64,000 nt of DNA. Origin: Octopus sinensis (Eukaryota). The position numbers and the translations under genes are program-made. The stretch lies in the NCBI RefSeq assembly GCF_006345805.1, contig NC_043020.1:27528001-27592000 (forward strand), given 5' to 3'. Positions 14,185 to 61,100 of the stretch are shown here, piece after piece (the stretch's first letter is position 1; every line of letters begins with the position of its first letter). The notes beneath the pieces were generated by a model. It was not told the origin of the DNA, did no database searches, and saw only the letters and a program-made list of their open reading frames with translations.

Positions 14185-14590
14185 TCTCTTTACTCTTTTA
14201 CTTGTTTCAGTCATTTGATTGCAGCCATGCTGGAGCACTGCCTTTAATCGAGCAACTCAACCCCGGGACTTATTCTTTTGCAAGCCCAGTACTTATTCTA
14301 TCGGTCTCTTTTGCTGAACCACTAAGTAACGGGAACGCAAACCCACCAGCATCGGTTGTCAAGCAATGCTAGGGGGACAAACACAGACACTCAAACACAC
14401 ACACACGCATATATATATATATATACGACAGGCTTCTTTTCAGTTTCCGTCTGCCAAATCCACTCACAAGGCTTTGGTCGGCCCGGGGCTATAGTAGAAG
14501 ACACTTGCCCAAGGTGCCACGCAGTGGGATTCAACCCGGAACCATGTGGTTGGTTAGCAAGCTACTTACCACACAGCCACTCCTACGCCT
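14185..14590 (-). mobile_element. Dominant SINE family copy
   Basis: Reverse complement of the 10887-11273 family. Confidence 0.85.
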
Positions 14591-20853: not shown

Positions 20854-23800
20854 GTATGTCACAAATAATACCTTTATTTATTCTATTTTATTTAATGTTT
20901 TAATATTCCCTTGAAACGGTGCGCGATAAGATTTTTTCAGGTCGACTTTGATTTTCAAACTTTCAAGCGAAGGACGGCGAGGCACGATTAAACGAACACC
21001 AGTCAAGTATCGAAGTGGTTGTAGTTATTATTATTACCATTGAGTCCCAGATCTGGCGTTTCAGGCGTGACCATCTCATTTATACACACGTGCGATCTTG
21101 TATTTTTCCAAAAGCGTCTTTATTTTACAAGGAAAAACGAGTGTGATTTGCAGTAGCTTGGCTGCTATTTCTCGCATTTCGGAGCGACCGTGTCATCACC
21201 CTGTAACCCTAACCAGGCGGTTTGGCTGAATCACTCACGTGTTCGATTGAAAGCTTTTCGCTCTTTAGTTGCGATCTCGTTAACGTTCTGAGTTCCCGAG
21301 TTCACGTCCCACCGAAGTGAACTTTATTCTGTGAACAAACAAACAACTGGTCTTGTTTTGCCACCTCAGTAGAATTACTATCGCTTGTTCAAATCGAAAC
21401 GTGTGTGTTCTCAGTTAATTTCATCGGCTGGATTGTTGTAGACCAGATTAACGCCCATACTGGTGTCTGTCTGAAGGTTTCAATCGACTGATCTTACTGG
21501 GATTGTCTCCCCTGTTTAATCTTTTTGTTATTGGACTGCAGCCATGCTGGAGTACTTCTGTGAAGGGTTTAGTTGAACTAATCGACACCCCCACCTCACC
21601 CCGTTGTGCTTTTAAGTCTGGACCTTGCTCTATTTATTATTCTCTTTTGTTGAACTGCTAAGTTACGAGGATGTAAATAAGTCGACACCAGTTGTAAAAC
21701 TGATAGGTGTGACAGACACACGCACACATGGCTCTGGTTGGCCTGGGGTTATAACAAAAGACACTTGCCCAATGTGTTGCACACTGGGATTGAACCAAAG
21801 ACCACATGGTTGTGAAGTAAGCTTCTTAACCACACGGCCACACCTGTTCTTTTATTCTTTTACTTGTTCAGTCATTTGACTGTGGCCATGCTGGAGCACC
21901 ACCTTGGAGGTTTTTTTCAGTTAAATACATCGACCCTGGGACTTATTCTTTATAAGCCTAGTACTTGTTCTGTTGGTTTCTTTTGCCGAACTGCTAAGTT
22001 ACGGGGGACACAAACATACCATCTGTTGTCAAGCAGTGGTGGGGTACAAAAACACACACACAAATATATACAAATGCATATACTCTTTACTCTTACTCGT
22101 TTCAGTCATTTGACTGCGGCCATGCTGGAGCACCGCCTTTAATTGAGCAACTCAACCCCAGGACTTATTCTTTGTAAGCCCAGTACTTATTCTATCGGTC
22201 TCTTTTGCCGAACCACTAAGTAACGGGGACATAAACACACCAGCATCGGTTGTCAAGCAATGCTAGGGGGACAAACACAGACACACAAACACACACATGC
22301 ATATATATACAAATATACGACGGGCTTCTTTCAGTTTCTGTCTACCAAATCCACTCACAAGGCTTTGGTCGACCCGAGGCTATAGCAGAAGACACTTGCC
22401 CAAGGTGCCACGCAGTGGGACTGAACCCGGGACTGTTTTTTTAAAAATCAACCTTATTAAACAAGTTCGTTGCCTGCTAATTACCTGAGTAATTATATTT
22501 GATCAAAGTGTTTCTTCTCACTCTATTTACATATGAGAGACCCTGACTGTGTGTGCGTTCAGTATGCAGAGGGCTCCCCTGAGCTAACAGTCTCACAGCC
22601 ATGCTGTTGGCATTTGTAATCAGCATGCTTGGAGTTTCTTCATTTCTACCCTGCCACCCGATATAGGTGCACTGCATGAGCATGGGGTGGTTAAGAAGTT
22701 TGATCTAGCGCCATGTGGTTTTGCACCCAGCTGTTTCACTACACAGCACATTGAATAAGTGTCTTCCGCTGTGTACGTGTGCTGACCAAGGCCTCGGTGA
22801 TGGATTTGGTAGAAGGAAACAGAAAGAAGCCCAGTGTGTGTGTGTGTGTTTTAGTAGAGTCAATAAAAAGAGTGCAATAAGCTATATATATATAATATAT
22901 ACTCTTTTACTTGTTTCAGTCATTTGACTGAGGCCATGCTGGAGCACCACCTTTAGTCGAACAAATCGACCCCAGGACTTATTCTTTGTAAGCCTAGTAC
23001 TTATGCCATCAGTGTCTTTTGCTGAACTGCTAAGTTACGGGGACATAAACATGCCAGCATTGGGGGGACAAACATATACACACACATACATACATATATA
23101 TGTCGCCATGATAGATCGTTAGCCACTACACATTTTTTTTCTCTCCTTGTTTTTTTCTGTGTCCCTTTCTGTAGAAGAGCGTAGGCTCGAAACGTAAAAG
23201 TCTTTTTCTATTCCTGAGCGTTATACTAATACATCTGTTTGTTTTTTTCGTAAACTCTCCCTATATATATATATATATACGAAGGGTTTCTTTCAGTTTC
23301 TGTCTACCAAATCCACTCACAAGGCTTTGGTCAGCCCGAGGCTATAGTAGAAGTCACTTGCCCAAGTTACCATGCAGTGGGCCTGAACCCAGAACCATGT
23401 GGTTCATAAGCAAGCTACTTACCATACAGCCACTCCTACGCCTAAGAGTGTATAATTGTGAACAAATCACAGTTATAACGGAGAGGGTTGCAAAAACCCT
23501 TACATGTCTAGAAATAGCAGTCAAAGCTGCTATAACCACTTGTATTATATCCCTTCACAATAAAAGCTGTCGGCGGGTGACATGACATAAAATTCAAAAC
23601 TTAAAAATATATATATATATATATACACACATACATGCATATATACATACACACACTCGTCATATGCATGTGTGTATTTGTGTCTCCTTGCCTTGATATG
23701 AAGCAGTAGTCGTAAACGAGAATCACAATCCAACGAGTGATGTCATCATTCTCTCCCAGTCTTCTGGGAAAACCCGTTCAGCCAAGGGGCATGTTTTATC

Positions 23801-26776: not shown

Positions 26777-28160
26777 TACCCCAAACCAGGGACTTTTCAG
26801 CATCCCTTCATATATATGGCTTAGTGGTTAAGATGCTGCACTCACGGTTGCGAGATCGTGGGTTCGATTCCCAGGCCGGGCATTTTATTGTGTTCTTGAG
26901 CAGAACGCTTCATTTGACGTTGCTCTGCGATCATTTCATCATCTGACATGTGGCACCCGTTGCACCTGTACAGGTAATATCGATTTGATGGAGGGAGTGA
27001 GGTAATGTCTACACAAACATTTGATCACTATTAACAGATCATCTATGTGGTTGTTCAGTAAGGAATTGTCGAACCCTCATACATCGTCTAACGACAGCAG
27101 AGTCCATTATATATATATATCACGTGACCGACCAGACCATCAGATGTTGTTACACATCGCTGGTCACAATGCGCAATAAACACTCACAACGCCCGGTCTG
27201 GGAATCGAAACCGCGATCCTGCGACCGCGAGTCCGCTGCCCTAACCACTAGGCCATTGCGCCTCCACATATATATATATATATATATATATTGTATGCAA
27301 GTGTGGGTGGTGAAAAGTTCCTGGTTTTAAGGGTATCACGAAAGGACTCGTTGGCAGCCCAACCTCCTGAGTTCTTTTATGAGGCTTAGAAAAACTGAAG
27401 GACCACTGCAATAAGCGTGTGAATCTGAGAAGGGAATATGTTGCATAAAATCATAATTAACTGATTCTCTTGTATTTTCTTCTACCCAAAGCCAGGAACT
27501 TTCCAGAACCCCCTCCAATATATATATATATATTACGGAGATGTACTTGCATAGCAAGTGACCTAATCTGAGATCGTGTGCTGGGATGAAAACAATTGCA
27601 GCGTGGAAGGTGTTTATAACCCATTTAAGAAACACACAGAATCCGTCAGATTCACTTCAACATTTAAATTTAATTCCGTGCTGCACGGAATTTTGTCAGT
27701 GAACAGGTCGCGGTCTCAAAGCGACGAATATATTTTGACAAATTAAATATAAATGTTGAAGTGAATCTAACGGTTTTTGTGTGTTTCTTAAATGTCCACG
27801 CTGCAATTGTTATATATATATATTTACATAAGGCCAAAGAGGGTACGGATGCCGCTATATATATTATATGTAGAAAAATACAAACTGGGACAAGAACGTA
27901 AAACATTTAGAAGACGATACAAAAAACACGGACGGGACATTCGAAGCCTTCAATCTTCAGTCAGGAACCGGATCATCCTCACAATTTCGGCTGATTAATC
28001 TTGAGATTGCTCCGATAAGAAATTGCTCGGATGATCCGGTTCTTGACTGAAGATTGAAGGCTTCGAATGTCCCGTCCGTGTTTTTTGTATCGTCTTCTAA
28101 ATGTTTTACATTCTTGTCCCAGTTTGTATTTTTCTCTCTCTCTATATATATATTTATATA

Positions 28161-31200: not shown

Positions 31201-32358
31201 TGTTATTTTAGTTGGGTTTGTTTGTAGTCAAGAGGAGACAGCAGTAACATAGCTAAAGGTTAGGTCAGTCAAAGCTGTCCTTCATCTTCCTTTCTCTCTA
31301 GACAAAAAGCACAACAAAACACACCAAAAATTCCGCCCTGAAAACAGAATGATCTCCCTCGACCTCACCTTTAACCTATTCAATACCACCCAGCCTGAAA
31401 CTGTCCCTGCTTCTCTAATACAAGTGACCTGTTTTAAAGTAATCTAAATTACTAGGTTGAGGAAAACGCTTGTGCACCATGTTAAAATAATGATTTTTTA
31501 TGCAAGAATTTATTCAAAATCAACAAACAACTATTCTTCAAAATAAACATCATCATTTTCCACGACCTTCTACCAATGATCTGCAAGATTTCAGATTTGG
31601 TCAAAGTACCAATGTTTCAGCTTTGAATGGAAAAATTCTTGACAGGCTTCTTCAACTTCATCGAATGATTCAAATCGGTGACCTTTCATAAAGTGCTGCA
31701 TTGATCGGAAGAGACCGTAATCAGGTGGAGCAAGGTCTGGACTATAGGCTGGATGCAGCAGAGCATCCACATCGCCTAATTCTTCAATCCAGTTGCTGGT
31801 CTTTCTGGTGGTATGTGGCTTTGCATTGTCTTGTTGAAACAAAGCACGTTTTCGATGAACAATTCTTGGGTCCTTTTCAACCAGTGCATTGTAGACACAA
31901 TCAAGTTGCTTGCAGTACAGTTCAGCATTGATAGCACAACCATTAGATGTAATGTATATGACAATTTCAAACCACTTGAAAGAGATTGGAAAAACAAAAA
32001 AAACTTGAGAAATGGGTGCCACACGAATTGAATGACAACCAAAAAAAAGGCCGTTTTGAAGTGTTGTCTTTCCTTCTTTTATGCAACAAGAATGACCCAT
32101 TTCTCGACCAGATTGTGACTTGCAATAAAAAGTGGATTCTTTACGACAACTGGTGATGCTCAGCTCGGTGGTTGGATGCCAACAAGAGTACGTTTAGGCA
32201 GCTATTTAATGGAACCATGGTGATGGTGTGGCATATATATATACACATATAAATAGATGAGTGTATTTTTACCTTGTTAACAATTAACACGGAAAAATAT
32301 TTGATTTACACCTGCGTTAAACTCCATTTATTTATTCATATATATATAATCTCATGCA

Positions 32359-32649: not shown

Positions 32650-32726
<77 letters not shown>

Positions 32727-33180
32727 CTAGCAGTATCACCCGGCGTTGCTCGGTTTGTAAGGAAATAATTATATAAGCATTTTTAGAGATGTAAAGTATA
32801 ATAGCCATCTCAATATGGCTAACCATAAAGGGGGAGGGGTGTTACTGTAGCTTTTTACGTTCTGAGATTTAATAATAATTTTAGAGAGTTACTTCTCTTA
32901 TATATGTCAAAAATGGATTAAAAATGGGAAAAATTGATGGTAAATTTTTTTTAAATCGTAGACTCATCGTAGACGCGCGCTAATACCCAGACGGTCTTGA
33001 TATGAATCACGACTATAAGATACCCGCTTTTGGTTAAACTGCACCGCAAAATGTGGGAGTAGTTAGGAATCTAAATCGTAGGAGACAGACACACAACCTC
33101 ACTTTTATATATAAAGATTTCCTCTATTTACATAATATTGAGGTCTCTTTCTTTCTTTTGTTATCTTACTGTTTTTACCA

Positions 33181-33225
<45 letters not shown>

Positions 33226-36200
33226 CAGAGATGTACTTGCATAGCAAGTGACTTGATCTGAGATCGTGTGCTGGAACGAAAACAGTTGCAGCGTTGAAGG
33301 TGTTTATAAGCCATTTAAGAAACACACAAAAACCGTTAGATTCACTTCAACATTTAAATTTAATTTGTCAAAATATTTTCGTCGCTTTGAGACCGCGACC
33401 TGTTAGCACGATATTTTTGTCAGTGAACAGGTCGCGGTCTGAAAGCGACGAAAATATTTTGGCAAATTAAATTTAAATGTTGAAGTGAATCTAACGGTTT
33501 TTGTGTGTTTCTTAAATGGCTTATAAACACCTTCCACGCTGCACTATATATATACACACATATATATATATGTATGTATGTGTGTATATGTGTATGCATG
33601 TATGTGTGTGTGTGTGTGCGTGTCTGTGCTTGTGATTGTCCTCCACCACTGCTTGACAACGAATGTTGGTTTGTTTACATCCCTGTCACCTAGTGGTTTG
33701 ACAAAGGAAACAGAATAAGTACAATGCTTACAAAAATAAAACTGGAGTTGATTCATTAAACTACAATTTTTCAAGGCATTGCCCCAGCATGGCCACAGAC
33801 CAATGGTTGGAATAAGCAGAAGAATAAAAGAATACATTCTCTGCTTTGGTCTTATGTTCAAGGCATGAGAAAGCTTGAGTTTACATGAGAAGGCCTAACA
33901 GACCTGGTAGAAACAGCAGCCAAATCTCCCTCAAATCACACCTTACTGTCTTATGTATGTATATATATATGAGCCAATGAGGGGGACCTCTACATGGTAG
34001 CTAGACCTGGTAGAAATAGCAGCCAAATTTCCCCCAAATCACACCTTACTGTCTTATCTATGTATATATGTATGTATGAGCCTATGAGGGAGACCCCTAC
34101 ATGGCAGCTAGACATGGTAGAAATAGCAGCCAAATCTCCCTCAAATCACACCTTACTGTCTTATCTTTCTGCCACTTGGATATAGGTGTTATATTCGTCG
34201 TAAAAAACTTTCCTGTCACACACTCACGCACACACACACACACGCGCACACACACACACACACTCACACACACGCACGTTAGCTTACAATTTTATTTATA
34301 TATTTGCGTGTCTATGTGTTGAAAGAGGAAGTGGGAGGCAGAGTGAAAGAATCACTCACTACAGTAAGTGAATTACTATCATTTTATTCGTTGCCCACTG
34401 TGTGTGTGCGTTTGCGTGTGGTGTAAACCAGACTAAGAAAAGCATTTGACACACACACCAGAATGTGAGTTTTCTGTAAATTTTGCTTAATTGGAGTTTA
34501 AATTTTAAAAACTGGACCTGGCATGACGCGATGCATTGTACTCTCAAAAATGCTAGGTAAATTGTAATTGAAGAAATCCTATATTGTAGATTTGTATAAC
34601 TCCCAAAGGGAGGCAGATAAAATCTGCCTTTTATAATAAGAGATATATATATATATATATGTATGTATGTATGTATGCATGTATATATATGTATGTATGT
34701 ATGCATGTATATATATGTATGTATGTATGCATGTATATATATGTATGTATGTATGCATGTATATATATGTATGTATGTATGCATGTATATATATGTGTAT
34801 GTATGCATGTATATATATGTATATGTATGTATGCATGTATGTATATGTATGTATGCATGTATATGTATGTATGTATGCATGTATATGTATGTATGTATGT
34901 ATGCATGTATATGTATGTATGTATGCATGTATATGTATGTATATGTATGTATGCATGTATATATATGTATATGTATGTATGCATGTATATATATATGTAT
35001 ATGTATGTATGCATGTATATATATATGTATATGTATGCATGTATATATATATGTATATGTATGTATGCATGTATATATATATGTATATGTATGTATGCAT
35101 GTATATGTATGTATGCATGTATATATATATGTATATGTATGTATGCATGTATATATATATGTATATGTATGTATGCATGTATATATATGTATATGTATGT
35201 ATGCATGTATATATATATGTATGTGTATATATATGTATGCATGTATATATATATGTATGTGTATATATATATATATATATTTATACACACATGATGGGCT
35301 TCTTTCAGTTTCCATCTACTAAATTCACTCGCAGGGCTTTGGTTGGCCTGAGGCTATAGTAGAAAACACTAGCCCAAGGTGCCATGCTGTGGGACTGAAC
35401 TCAGAACCATGTGGTGGGGATCAGGCATCTTACCACACAGCCATGCTTGTCCACATTTCTTTGTTTTTTCATTTCCTGTTGACCCAGTTTCCTCCGTTCT
35501 ACAAGACCAGCGTTCCATTGCTAACCAAAATCAGAACACAAACAAACAATTAGCAAAGAACAACCTTCAGCGTCTGGAAAAACAGGACGGTGACATTGCT
35601 ATATTTGGATAATTGGATACAGCGAGGGGAGAGGGAGGATGATGAGGATGAATGATGTTGTTGATGATGATGATATTTGAGAGTATGTTTAGGAAGCTAT
35701 TTAATGGAACCACGGTGATGGTGCAGCATATATATATATTTAATCTCATGCTGTAAAATTTGTCCCCTGCCCTGGGCCTTTATTCACATTTGCAGCCAGG
35801 GCTGTGGAGTCGAAACAAAAAACTTTGACTCCGACTCCTCTGCTGTTGGCACCTCTGACTCCTCTTTATGTAATTAAGTAATTGTGGTCTACATGTCTCA
35901 TAAAGCATATGCATACTCTTGTACTTTTGGTAGGCCTCTATGTCATAAATGGTTTATATTAAAGAACTTACAGTATCACCCGGCGTTGCTCAGTTTTGTT
36001 TCGACCCTTTAGAATTGGAATTTTTGAAAAGTAAACATTTTGCATTATGTAGCTTGTTATTCTCTTTAAGTGAACATTTTTCTGGTTGAAATACACTGAA
36101 AAGTGGCGACACAGCAGTCCAAAAATCGTAAAAAAAAATAAGGATTTTCATAGAAAAAAAGCACCTTTTTGATGTAAATAATATTTGGTGCTAACATGGT

Positions 36201-41600: not shown

Positions 41601-44283
41601 GTTTTTAAATGAAATGTCAAATATTCATTAAAAAAAACTGAACTAAGACTGGTTTTAACATTCTCTGTTGAAAAGTGTGAATCAACAGATGTTGTGTGGC
41701 CAGCTTAATGTTTTTTTGTTTTTGTGCCATATTTATGGAAGCAGAGTCGCAGATGGCTTTCTTGGTACGGCTGCATGTGGATGATCTAGCAACACCTTGC
41801 AAACAGTTGACCCTTTTGTTACTCCTTTACTTGTTTCAGTCATTTTGACTGTGGCAATGCTGGAGCATCGCCTGTAGTCGAGCAAATCGAACCCTGGACT
41901 TATTCTTTTTGTAAGCCCAGTACTTATTCTATCGGTCTCTTTTTGCCGAACCGCTAAATTACAGGGACATAAACACATCAGCATCGGTTGTCAAGCAATG
42001 TTGGGGGACAAACACAGACACACATACATATATATATACATATATACGATGGGCTTCTTTCAGTTTCCGTCTACCAAATCCACTCACAAGGCTTTGGTCG
42101 GCCCCAGGCTATAGCTGAAGACACTTGCCCAAGATGCCACGCAGTGGGACTGAACCCGGAACCATGTGGTTTGTAAGCAAGCTACTTACCACACAGCCAC
42201 TCCTACGCCTAAAATATTAACGTTAGCTGTATTCATTTTGAGTTGCTCTGTGTTTCTTTCAATTAATTTTGAGTATAACAAAGAGTTGTGGAGGCGCAAT
42301 GGCCCAGTGGTTAGGGCAGTGGACTCAAGGTCGGAGGATCGTGGTTTCAATTCCCAGACCAGGCGTTGTGTGTGTTTGTTGAGCGAAAACACCTAAAAGC
42401 TCCACAAGGATCCGGCAGGGGGTAGTGGCAACCCTTGTTGTACTCTTTTGCACTCTCTCTTCCTGTTTCTTGAGTAACGCTGCGATGGACTGGCGTCCCA
42501 TCCAGCTGGGGGGAACACATACACCACAGAAACCAGGAAACTGGGCCCATGAGCCTGGCTAGGCTTGAAAAGGGCGACGTTTATCATTATAACAAAGACT
42601 TTAGTAAAATAACTTAGTTATCATTAAGCTAGTGTTGGGAGCATAAATTGTGGAAGATTTTAATTAAAAACTTATGAAAACAAGACATTTGTGCTACAGA
42701 GGGTTTCAGCCTGGTTGGTATCAAAAGGGTTAAGAATTGCTTCTCTATTATATATTTTAACCCTTTTGTCACCATATTTCTGTTAAGATGATCTGTGTTT
42801 CTTTCAATTAATTTTAAATATAACAAAGAATTTAGTAAAATAACTTAGTTATCATTGAGCTAGTGTTAGGAACATAAATTGTGACTAAGGTTTGGTGGAA
42901 GATTTTAATTCAAAATTTATGAAAACAAGACATTTGTAACAGGTAATTTTACATGCTACATATCATCATCATCATCGTTTAACGTCCGTTTTCCATGCTA
43001 GCATGGGTCGGACGGTTCAACTGGGGTCTGGGAAGCCAGAAGACTGCACCAGGCTCCAGTCTGATCTGGCAGTGTTTCTACAGCTGGATGCCCTTCCTAA
43101 CGCCAACCACTCCGTGAGTGTAGTGGGTGCTTTTTATGTGCCACCTGCACAGGTGCCAGGCGAGGCTGGCAATGGCCACGATTCGGATGCTGCTTTTTAC
43201 GTGCCACTGATATATATATATATATAGTCAAATCTTCCACCCCATGCCAGCATGGAAAGTTGACATTTAACGATGATGATTGCCTCAAGCATGACTGTGT
43301 AATTAAGAAGTTTGTTCCCACCATGTTTATGCGTATCTGATTTTACTGTCATGGATGTCGAGATCTGTGTTTAAATTCAGGAAGGTTAGGAAGCCGTGAC
43401 TAAGATACCAGGCGGGATTAAAGCACGTCAACTCACCAGACAGGAACACGATAACATTTCAATCTAATATCATACATATTCACCACAACAACAAGGAAGC
43501 ATTGACCTGCTATAAATAGCAGCTAAATTTCTTAGAAAAATGTAAACCATCTCTAGAAAACAAAACACCAAAAAACACGGGCATAGGAGTGGCTGTATGG
43601 TATGTAGCTTGCTTACGAATCACATAGTTCTGGGTTCAGTCCTACTGCGTGGCACCTTGGGCAAGTGTCTTCTACTATAGCCTCGGGCCGACCAAAGCCT
43701 TGTGAGTGGATTTGGTAGACGGAAACTGAAAGAAGCCCCTCGTATATATGTGTGTGTGTGTGTATGTTTGTGTGTCTGTGTTTGTCCCACCAACATCACT
43801 TGACAACCGATGCTGGTGTGTTTATGTCCCCGTAATTCAGCGGTTCGGCAAAAGAGACCAATAGAATAAGTACTAGGCTTACAAAGAATAAGACCTGGGG
43901 TCGATTTGATCGACTAAAGGTGGTGCTCCAGCATGGCCACAGTCAAATAACTGAAACAAGTAAAAGAGTAAAAGATTGAAAAAAAAAAACCAAACACAAT
44001 GGACATTGCAATTTGGGATGGGACAGCCACAACTGGAATGTCTGTTATGTGTCTGTTTGATCAGGGCTAATTGATAGTAATTGTTTTTTTGTTTAAGGTA
44101 CAGGGTGGATGTTTCCTTGTTTCTGTAGAAACAGGTTTAATAGTGGGGAAATATTACCTTATTTGGAAAGAAGTGAGGGGGTTTGGTGTCAGTGGTGGGG
44201 CATTTGGCTGTAGAAAGTCAGCCGCAACAGATTCTGTCTTTGCCATGGGATCATGGGAAAGTAGACTTTGAAATGATGATGAT

Positions 44284-58118: not shown

Positions 58119-61100
58119 TGTGTCTCCACGTGTTCTCTGTGCATGTATGTATGTGTGTGTGTATGTATGTGTGTGTGTGTATGTATGTATGTGTGTGTAT
58201 GTATGTGTGTGTGTATGTATGTGTCTGTGTGTGTGTGTGTATGTATGTGTGTGTGTGTACGTGTGTCTCCATGTGTTCTCTGTGCATGTATGTATGTGTG
58301 TGTGTATGTATGTGTGTGTGTATGTATGTGTGTGTGTATGTGTGTATGTATGTGTGTGTATGTGTGTGTGTGTATGTATGTGTGTGTGTGTGTGTGTATG
58401 TGTGTGTATGTATGTGTGTGTATGTATGTGTGTGTGTGTATGTATGTGTGTGTGTGTGTACGTGTGTCTCCATGTGTTCTCTGTGCATGTATGTGTGTGT
58501 GTATGTTCATCTGTGTGTGTCTGCGTGCTCTTAGTTATAGCTTTATCTGCTTCAAGTTCTGAAGTTAAAAACAAATTGTTTCATGTTCTCTTAGAGTTTC
58601 TAAATTCTTATGTCATAAACCTCTTACAATTCTTGATGGTAAAAACAAAATTTCCAAAGTGTGTAACGTTTGTCATTCCTACACAAGATGGGGGTTCAAA
58701 TCCCACCAGCAGCCTTTGAGTTTTTTTAGCCAAAGGTTTTTTTAACCTAATATTTACAAGCTATTATAAGTTGAATGACTTATTTTTTATAGGCCTAGTA
58801 CTTATTCTATCAGTCTCTTTGGCCAAACTGCTAAGTTACGGGGATGTAAATACACCAACGTTGCTTGTCAAGTGATGGTGGGGGTACAAACACAGACACA
58901 CACATACACACATGTATATACGACGGGCTTCTTTCAGTTTCCGTCTACCAAATCCACTCACAAGGCTTTGGTCAGCCCGAGGCTAAAGTAGAAGACACTT
59001 GCCCAAGGTGACACACAGTGGGATTGAACCTTGAACCATGTGGTTTGTAAGCAAGCTACTTACCACACAGTTACTCCTATATATATATATATCGATGCCG
59101 AGTCAAGTACATCAACATCAGCAATATCAAAATCAAATTAAATAGAAATTGTATTTGTGAGCCCCGTGCCGGTAGCACGTAAAAAGCACAATCCAAACGT
59201 GGCCAGTACCAGTGCTGCTTTGACTGGCTTCCATGCTTGTGGCACATAAAAAGCACCATCCGATCGTGGTTGATGTCAGTTCCTCTGGCCCCTTGTGCCG
59301 GTGGCATGTAAAAAGCATCCACTACACTCTTGGAATTTTGGTGTCAGGAAGGGCATTGAGCTGTAGAAACACCGCCAGACCATATTGGGGTTTGGTGCAG
59401 CCTCCTGGCTTCCCAGACCCCAGTTGACCCATTCAACCCATGCCAGCATGGAAAACGGACGTAAAAATGATGATGATGATGATGATGATACACACACATA
59501 CACACAAAGAGCTTCTTTCAGTTTCCATCTGCCAAACCTACTCACAAGGCTTTGTTCGACCCAGTGCCATTGTAGAAGCCACTTGCCCAAGGTGCCACAC
59601 ATAGGCACTGAACTTTGTATATCTGTGTGTAAATGTGTTTCTCTTTGTGTATACATATATATATACGTTTAAATATTTGTTGTGCAAGATTTTTTATGTG
59701 AAGTCGTGTGTTGAAACAGATATTGTTATATTTTGGAATGGTCATTTTGCCAGTTTAGCCAATAAAAACACACGCACTATTTATTTGGTGTTATTTTGCT
59801 TCAGTGTTATCTATTTTTTTACATTAATCTTAATATTATTTCGGCCAATGATGCGGTCACAGGAGTGTGACGAAAGAACTCTGGCCGAAATAAGATTAAG
59901 ATTAATGTAAAAAATAAATAACACTGAAGCAAAATAACACCAAATATATAGTGTGTGTGTTTTTATTGGCTAAACTAGCAAAATGACCATTCCGAAATAT
60001 AACAATATATATATATATATTTGTACGTACATAACATACACACTTTTTAATTAGCAGCTAATTATTGTTTTTTGATTGACAGGCCTCTCATGATCAGCAG
60101 CCAAAAGCTGACCAGTCTGGCGTTCAACCTCTACGATGGCAGGTATCGCGACGACAAAGATTTATCGAAAAGCCAGCGCCAGTATGCTGTCAAGTACGTA
60201 GATATTGGAGTATTTTAATCATGTGATCTCACGACCTCATGACCTTTGTGTTGTTCGTCTTGTTGCTGTTGTTATTGCTGAGCTCCAGATATCAAAGCTG
60301 TTCCAGATATGACCACTCCATTGTTTTTTTTTTATTTTTGGTTCTCCATGGTGGTTTGTGATTCGTTGAGGGAGTTTGGTTAGTATTTCTAGCAGATGTA
60401 GTGACCACATAGAAAATGCCCGTGATGTGTTGTTTTATTATTTTTTTGTATTTGTGTTTTGTATTTGCAATCCTTTTATCTTTTTACTTGTTCCAGGCAC
60501 TGTGCTGCGGCCATGCTGGGGCACCACCCTTGAAGGGCTTGAGACAAACGGGTTCAGCGCTAGCGCTCATTTTTAGAAGTTTGGTAGTTATTCTGTCAGT
60601 CTCTTTTGCCACAACTGCTAAGTTATGGGGATGTAAACAAACCAACATTGGTTGTCAAATTGTGGAGGGACACAAACACAGATACAAGAACAGACACAGA
60701 CACATATATGTACACTCACATGTGTACACACACATACATGTATATACACACACACACATATATATACACACACACATACACATATATATGATAGATAAAG
60801 GTCCTTCCTGAGTCTTATAGACTCATAAGGGCTGGTTTCCTGGCCTCCATAACATATATATTCCCCACCTGAGTGGGCTGGAGTATCGTGAAATAAAGAG
60901 TCTTGCTCAAGAGCACAATGCATTGCTCGGCGCAAGAATTGAAACCGCGATCTTACAATCACAAGTCCAACACCCTAACCACTAAGCCCCCACCACACAC
61001 ACACACACAGCAGGCTTCTTCATAACTTCCATTTATCAAACTCACTCACAGCCCCAAAACTGTAACAGAAGACGATTCGTGAGATTGAACCCAAAACCAC

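What the first reader, a model, noticed from the sequence alone, without database searches (positions are those of the whole stretch)
33416..33466. Apparent natural G3:C8 compensatory swap in a hammerhead catalytic core
Seen: 7-bp stem I (TTTGTCA/TG(A/G)CAAA), core GUGAACA in place of CUGANGA, an extra G, stem II GTCGC/GCGAC, GAAA, palindromic AAUAUU stem III and a UUU site. The same GUGAACA core recurs at 27699-27705. Known: C3-G8 is a Watson-Crick tertiary pair and the engineered G3:C8 double mutant rescues activity. Inference: the covariation suggests selection for folding, and standard CUGANGA searches would miss it.
Basis: partly seen in the sequence, partly recalled or inferred. Interest (0 to 1): 0.8.

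Follow-up and report, generated by a model that had tools for sequence, protein, structure and literature searches.

The report
Natural G3:C8 hammerhead in Penelope retrotransposon
Thousands of copies of a Penelope-type jumping gene carry a hammerhead-shaped RNA whose central C-G pair is flipped to G-C, while sister families keep the usual pair; this is a natural version of a laboratory rescue mutant and likely means the fold is still under selection, though self-cutting is untested.

Summary
Confirmed. The motif is a minimal type I hammerhead in the pseudo-LTR of a Penelope-like retrotransposon (RT, Cys linker, C-terminal GIY-YIG; Neptune-like), 56 nt upstream of the start codon. G3:C8 is the family norm: 3301 of 3694 genome matches and all 22 cores found beside the ORF. 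Homologous sister families keep C3:G8 (753 canonical cores), as does an outgroup element, so the swap is derived, with one origin seen. The other core letters are canonical and stem II covaries. Against a simple selection story: a sister family amplified with an uncompensated A9C core (87 of 100 listed), no copy starts at the cleavage site (0 of 141), and activity is unmeasured. The flagged copy is a passenger in a Helitron-like element inside a fold-back, so probably inert. Natural U3:A8 and engineered G3:C8 are published. I found no report of natural G3:C8, but four key papers were unavailable.

The parts
33416..33466 (+). Minimal type I hammerhead motif (family A): stem I, core, extra G, stem II, GAA, palindromic stem III, U17
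33423..33429 (+). Core GUGAACA: G3 at 33423, C8 at 33428; the other core letters are canonical
   Evidence: family norm
33431..33449 (+). Stem II (5 bp, G10.1-C11.1 first) with a variable loop; one pair is G-C here and A-U in sister families
33453..33459 (+). Palindromic AAUAUU stem III and predicted cleavage site after U17 (33459)
   Evidence: U17 in 120 of 121 arms
33516..33543 (+). Start of the parent ORF (ATG 56 nt past the predicted cut), cut off at the shorter of the family's two usual 3' ends
   Evidence: same sequence opens the long ORF in L205; 3' ends cluster at two places
33220..33404 (-). Inverted second arm of the pseudo-LTR with the longer 3' tail; lacks the 5' strand of stem I and the first half of the core
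32726..34644 (-). About 1.9-kb non-coding carrier with Helitron-like ends (TC ... hairpin, CTAG; label from recalled features) that has copied this pLTR pair as DNA
   Evidence: shared by 29 of 29 other best-match loci and by 4 of 30 pattern-picked loci
27692..27742 (+). Second family A hammerhead, G3:C8, with U at 15.1 (stem III broken)
27531..27811 (+). Independent inverted pLTR insertion between (TA)n runs holding the second copy; its left arm lacks the hammerhead
59848..59890 (+). Remnant hammerhead of sister family B (G8 kept, A at 3, C at 9)

Best explanation
This is a hammerhead motif in the pseudo-LTR of a Penelope-like retrotransposon whose C3-G8 core pair is G3-C8 in most copies, a swap that likely arose once in the family's ancestor and was likely kept by selection for the hammerhead fold. 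It sits in non-coding sequence just before the start codon. It would cut slowly after U17, probably as a dimer through the AAUAUU palindrome or with help from the element's protein, and so trim or uncap the element's RNA. The genomic copies came from uncut RNA. The flagged copy itself is probably inert.
For: Shown: 3301 of 3694 matches are G3:C8; 104 of 121 arms from loci anchored outside the core, with G3 in 121 of 121; 22 of 22 cores detected in 30 ORF-anchored loci. Shown: the parent ORF has a GIY-YIG domain, a 1042-codon open frame, and the pLTR runs into it in frame from an ATG 56 nt past U17, so protein coding does not constrain the core. Shown: sister families have C3:G8 in the same frame, one reading CUGAAGA and differing from family A only at 3 and 8 within the core; the 3-8 column pair is CG 9, GC 3, unpaired 0 of 12 rows. 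The protein tree puts family A beside B+C with a C3:G8 element outside. Changes that mark subfamilies fall in loop II, outside the stems, or keep pairing as G-U. The architecture matches PLE hammerheads (PMC4209133). C3G/G8C partly restores cleavage in a Poseidon hammerhead (PMC11167929). Inference: if two of about 13 core positions changed at random, being the 3/8 partners and pairing has odds near 1 in 230 (hand calculation, after the fact).
Against: One event only, and the rows are related, so this is not statistical covariation. Sister family B amplified with an uncompensated C9 (87 of 100 listed of 2518), so core changes are tolerated in this clade. No arm begins at the cleavage site (0 of 141 start at reference positions 54-64). 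In the Poseidon system cleavage was not needed for insertion in vitro (PMC11167929). The predicted fold pairs G3 with U17 as an extension of stem I, which would compete with G3-C8. The AAUAUU duplex alone is barely stable (-0.2 kcal/mol). The extra base after A9 is G, where the published consensus has A, C or U. No activity was measured.
Confidence: 0.68

Rival explanations
1. The ribozyme is vestigial in this clade. C3 and G8 changed by drift in a source element, pair by luck, and the family spread regardless.
For: Family B's commonest form has an uncompensated A9C yet is young and abundant. No cleavage-site 5' ends. Insertion without cleavage in vitro (PMC11167929). Naiad elements spread without canonical hammerheads (PMC8557442). 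The branch to family A is long (0.41 changes per site).
Against: Only the two partner positions changed in the core. Stems I and II stay paired across families, with compensatory changes. C8-to-G arises often in copies, yet no amplifying subfamily carries it.
Confidence: 0.2
2. The fold is selected but cutting is not: the three-helix junction serves as a binding or folding signal for the element's protein or for translation, and the 3-8 pair only keeps its shape.
For: Copies come from uncut RNA. PLE hammerheads cleave weakly and the authors leave non-cleavage roles open (PMC4209133). The Poseidon hammerhead is inactive without protein (PMC11167929).
Against: In Poseidon the shortest active template begins after the core (PMC11167929). 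Keeping G12, A13, A14 and a non-G at 17 fits catalysis (established hammerhead chemistry).
Confidence: 0.12

Closest known systems
Minimal and palindromic-stem-III type I hammerheads in pLTRs of Penelope-like elements (Cervera and de la Pena 2014, PMC4209133)
   Same: Position in the pLTR, extra base between 9 and 10.1, G10.1-C11.1, short palindromic stem III, many solo or inverted copies
   Different: None of the rows of that paper's Fig. S3 alignment that I read has G3; the only covariation it reports is U3-A8; the extra base here is G
Natural U3-A8 hammerhead variants (Perreault 2011, PMC3088659; Schistosoma PLEs, PMC4209133)
   Same: Natural compensatory change of the 3-8 tertiary pair
   Different: U3-A8 needs two transitions and can pass through U-G; G3-C8 needs two transversions, swaps purine and pyrimidine, and has no paired intermediate
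Engineered C3G/G8C double mutant (Poseidon PAc hammerhead, PMC11167929; review PMC8495972)
   Same: Same bases at 3 and 8; hammerhead near the ORF start; two 3' ends inside the ORF start (tail)
   Different: Here the change is natural and the family norm; the ORF starts 56 nt after the cut rather than in stem II
Neptune-clade Penelope-like elements (features as described in PMC8557442)
   Same: RT, Cys-rich linker of CX2-5CxxC type, C-terminal GIY-YIG, (TA)n targets, inverted partial copies, tail
   Different: Clade not tested against reference Neptune or Nematis sequences

Membership tests
Hammerhead ribozyme, type I | Stems I and II around the core, open end in stem I | tested here: met
   pairing 86% (stem I) and 98% (stem II) across families
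Hammerhead ribozyme, type I | U4 G5 A6, A9, G12 A13 A14, A15.1-U16.1, H17 | tested here: met
   each in at least 117 of 121 arms; the copy at 27699 fails at 15.1
Hammerhead ribozyme, type I | Literal C3 and G8 (CUGANGA) | tested here: not met
   G3 and C8
Hammerhead ribozyme, type I | Watson-Crick complementarity of 3 and 8 | tested here: met
   G-C in family A, C-G in sister families
Hammerhead ribozyme, type I | Self-cleavage after H17 | not testable with these tools
   no assay; no copies start at the site; only contigs were available
Hammerhead ribozyme, type I | Match to an Rfam hammerhead model | tested here: inconclusive
   no hammerhead hit for family A (none among the 150 of 242 rows shown) nor for a canonical sister copy
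PLE pLTR hammerheads | Located in the pLTR on both sides of an RT-GIY-YIG ORF | tested here: met
   3' side; 5' side
PLE pLTR hammerheads | Palindromic short stem III, extra base after A9 | tested here: met
   dimer cleavage itself not testable
Penelope-like element, EN+ | Single ORF with RT and C-terminal GIY-YIG; inverted or tandem partial copies; tail | tested here: met
   RT motifs read by eye, and homologues are named as RT-domain proteins; Pfam gave no RT hit
Neptune clade | Zn-finger-like Cys linker between RT and endonuclease | tested here: met
   CxxxCxxC...C before the GIY-YIG domain; Nematis shares this feature (PMC8557442)
Neptune clade | Grouping with reference Neptune RTs | not tested
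   no reference sequences were held

The most novel reading that the evidence does not exclude
These retrotransposons are selected for a deliberately weak ribozyme. The hammerhead lies between the RNA's 5' end and the start codon, and upstream of where reverse transcription starts, so fast cutting destroys both message and template. Two sister families each amplified after a core change that should slow it (G3:C8 in A, C9 in B), and family A pairs the swap with U17, avoiding an inhibitory G3-C17 pair. G3:C8 cores would then be an overlooked class of natural hammerheads missed by CUGANGA searches.
Probability: 0.2. Interest if true: 0.78.

Novelty: new variant of a known kind. Interest (0 to 1): 0.58.

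Why it matters
The 3-8 pair positions the catalytic nucleotide of the hammerhead. Nature was reported to vary it to U-A, and G-C was a laboratory rescue. A high-copy family fixed for G3:C8 beside C3:G8 sisters is evolutionary support for that tertiary pair. It also gives a ready set of natural alleles (C3:G8, G3:C8, G3:G8, C9) for the open question of whether Penelope hammerheads need to cut, and it shows that descriptors should allow any pair at 3 and 8.

Tried and rejected
A G3:G8 subfamily as a surviving intermediate: rejected. G8 is in excess (46 of 100 listed non-C8 rows, against 13 C among 100 listed non-G3 rows; tallied by eye). But 67 G8 arms lie on all subfamily backgrounds, and in 19 inverted pairs from 70 G8-picked loci 16 differ at position 8 between the arms while two linked markers mostly agree (13 of 16 and 14 of 15). 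A C3:G8 subfamily inside family A: none among 100 of 145 listed or 100 of 753 listed. Coding constraint on the core: rejected (loop II has a 1-nt length difference between subfamilies). A splice donor explaining the recurrent GAG 5' end: none found in six 3' UTRs. Relatives in other species: the contig look-up for homologous proteins was closed, so their DNA could not be read; a metagenome scan gave 3 loci, one with a readable hammerhead. Expression: no RNA holder is on record; one run guessed to be RNA holds the sequence, which proves nothing. Rfam with E-value threshold gave only microsatellite-driven microRNA hits among rows shown. Papers not held: PMC1986816, PMC2151028, PMC5785218 and a hammerhead review; one supplement file of PMC4209133 was not searched, part 3 of the other was not read, and the PMC8557442 supplement was cut when stored. 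Earlier-findings look-ups by sequence and place were empty.

Full report
Observation. The motif is exactly as described at 33416-33466, and the same core recurs at 27699-27705. The second copy has U at position 15.1, which breaks its stem III. Stems I and II are the predicted minimum-energy folds. A 22-letter pattern with positions 3, 7 and 8 left free matches 3694 places in the 2.72-Gb genome and its reversed control matches none.

Is G3:C8 the norm? Of the 3694 matches, 145 lack G3 and 248 have G3 without C8, leaving 3301 (89%) G3:C8. These are exact-flank matches, so a lower bound; a downstream segment has 7779 matches. Some are DNA-level duplicates: 4 of 30 pattern-picked loci ride in the same carrier as the window copy. 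In 121 distinct arms from loci anchored outside the core, G3 is in 121, with C8 104, G8 13, A8 3 and U8 1. Contigs of three runs from three further coded organisms show the same core in their loose-end consensus, and no listed difference at 3 or 8 (27 rows were not shown).

What the element is. Copies with longer upstream sequence lead to an ORF with RT motifs, a Cys-rich linker and a GIY-YIG domain. One copy has 1042 open codons. In L205 the pLTR runs into that ORF in frame from an ATG 56 nt past U17, so the hammerhead is non-coding. My descriptor found a core in 22 of 30 ORF-anchored loci, all G3:C8. Copies end at two places inside the ORF start, sit in (TA)n, and are often inverted pairs, as described for Penelope-like elements (PMC8557442, passages; PMC11167929, first part and passages). 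The linker points to Neptune or Nematis; I did not test the clade. The host is likely an octopus, since the protein closest to sister family B is labelled Octopus vulgaris.

The flagged copy. It is the right arm of an inverted pair that folds back over 258 nt (-199 kcal/mol). The pair lies inside a 1.9-kb element at 32726-34644 shared by all 29 other best matches, with Helitron-like ends (label from recalled features). This copy spread as DNA and probably cannot fold as a hammerhead in a transcript covering both arms.

Covariation. A sister family about 54% identical in protein and further relatives carry a homologous hammerhead. A pattern for canonical cores in that frame finds 753 matches, and none of the 100 listed has family A's stem II. 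One relative reads CUGAAGA, differing from GUGAACA only at 3 and 8, and shares the 5' strand of stem I. On 12 distinct rows the 3-8 pair is C-G in 9, G-C in 3 and never unpaired, and one stem II pair changes with it from A-U to G-C (rows are related and the outgroup row is misaligned after the core). A metagenome element 42% identical in protein has C3:G8 at the same place. A quick tree of 19 proteins puts A beside B+C (SH-aLRT 97) with that element outside; family C was only 16% filled. So G3:C8 is derived and arose once in this sample.

Evidence on selection. For: only the two partner positions changed in the core, both by transversion, and subfamily markers avoid the core and keep the stems paired. 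Family A has U17 in 120 of 121 arms, whereas many sister copies have C17. A C3-G17 pair is proposed to trap canonical hammerheads, and a G3-C8 variant was said to be less active with C17 than with G17 (PMC3884650, introduction and passages; data not shown there). The predicted G3-U17 wobble is a weaker form of that trap. Against: family B's commonest form has C in place of A9 (87 of 100 listed of 2518 matches; G8 in all 100) and is young, so this clade tolerates a core change. None of 141 arms begins at the cleavage site, so insertions came from uncut RNA, as in the Poseidon system, where catalytic mutants still inserted (PMC11167929).

An unexplained bias. G8 is about six times more common than the mirror change C3 (about 114 against 19, scaled from by-eye tallies), while the other changes are similar at the two sites. 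It is recurrent rather than inherited: 16 of 19 inverted pairs differ at position 8 between arms, and 67 G8 arms cover all subfamilies. I have no mechanism for it.

Mechanism, shown and inferred. Shown: place, anatomy, family-wide G3:C8, C3:G8 in relatives, uncut templates. Inferred: folding, slow cleavage after U17, dimer or protein help. Fifteen of 46 arms not picked by upstream sequence begin with GAG before the common 5' end and only 3 with the genomic upstream sequence; no donor site explains this. A copied cap on a transcript starting there is my guess, and would mean cleavage uncaps the message.

Prior knowledge. Natural U3-A8 is reported in PMC3088659 (section 8 read) and PMC4209133 (parts 1-2 of 4 and supplement parts 1-2 read; no G3 row in the Fig. 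S3 alignment). Partial rescue by C3G/G8C is in PMC11167929 and PMC8495972 (passages). Ten searches showed no natural G3:C8 report in their listings, and passage searches of PMC10085705, PMC6155905, PMC6765202, PMC2553840 and PMC6962438 showed none. Of a 2026 preprint on animal retrozymes I read part 1 of 5. Four relevant papers were not held, including the 2017 study of small PLE hammerheads, so priority is not established. An earlier unchecked note of this scan describes a similar G3:C8-type core behind a Penelope RT in another genome; I did not test it.

Verdict. A real, family-wide natural G3:C8 hammerhead variant in a Penelope-like element; a new variant of a known kind; catalytic selection is likely but unproven.

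Noticed in passing
L232-L261 and window 59848-59890: Sister Penelope-like family B has C at hammerhead position 9 in 87 of 100 listed cores (2518 matches), an uncompensated change in a young, ORF-bearing family.
   Followed up: partly
L061-L090, L282-L321: C8-to-G arises repeatedly in family A copies, about six times more often than the mirror change at position 3, and usually in one arm of an inverted pair; mechanism unknown.
   Followed up: yes
L034, L064, L080, L105, L107, L116, L117 and others: Many copies begin with GAG just before the common 5' end, where the genomic element has TCAG or TTAG; possibly a reverse-transcribed cap or an unseen short exon.
   Followed up: partly
window 32726-34644: Non-coding Helitron-like element that captured the inverted pLTR pair and spread it as near-identical copies.
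   Followed up: partly
window 27872-28116: Another fold-back repeat next to (TA)n containing CTGAAGA, possibly a remnant of a different Penelope-like family.
   Followed up: no
window 31591-32193, minus strand: 200-codon open frame resembling a mariner-type transposase fragment (recalled motif).
   Followed up: no
L210, L213-L216, L220-L221: Three of about seven independent 5' pLTR-ORF junctions carry G8, against none of 22 cores on the 3' side; small numbers and confounded with age.
   Followed up: partly
window 14379-14585, 22270-22476, 41999-42205 and others: Abundant SINE-like repeat of about 200 nt, at least 8 copies in the window.
   Followed up: no
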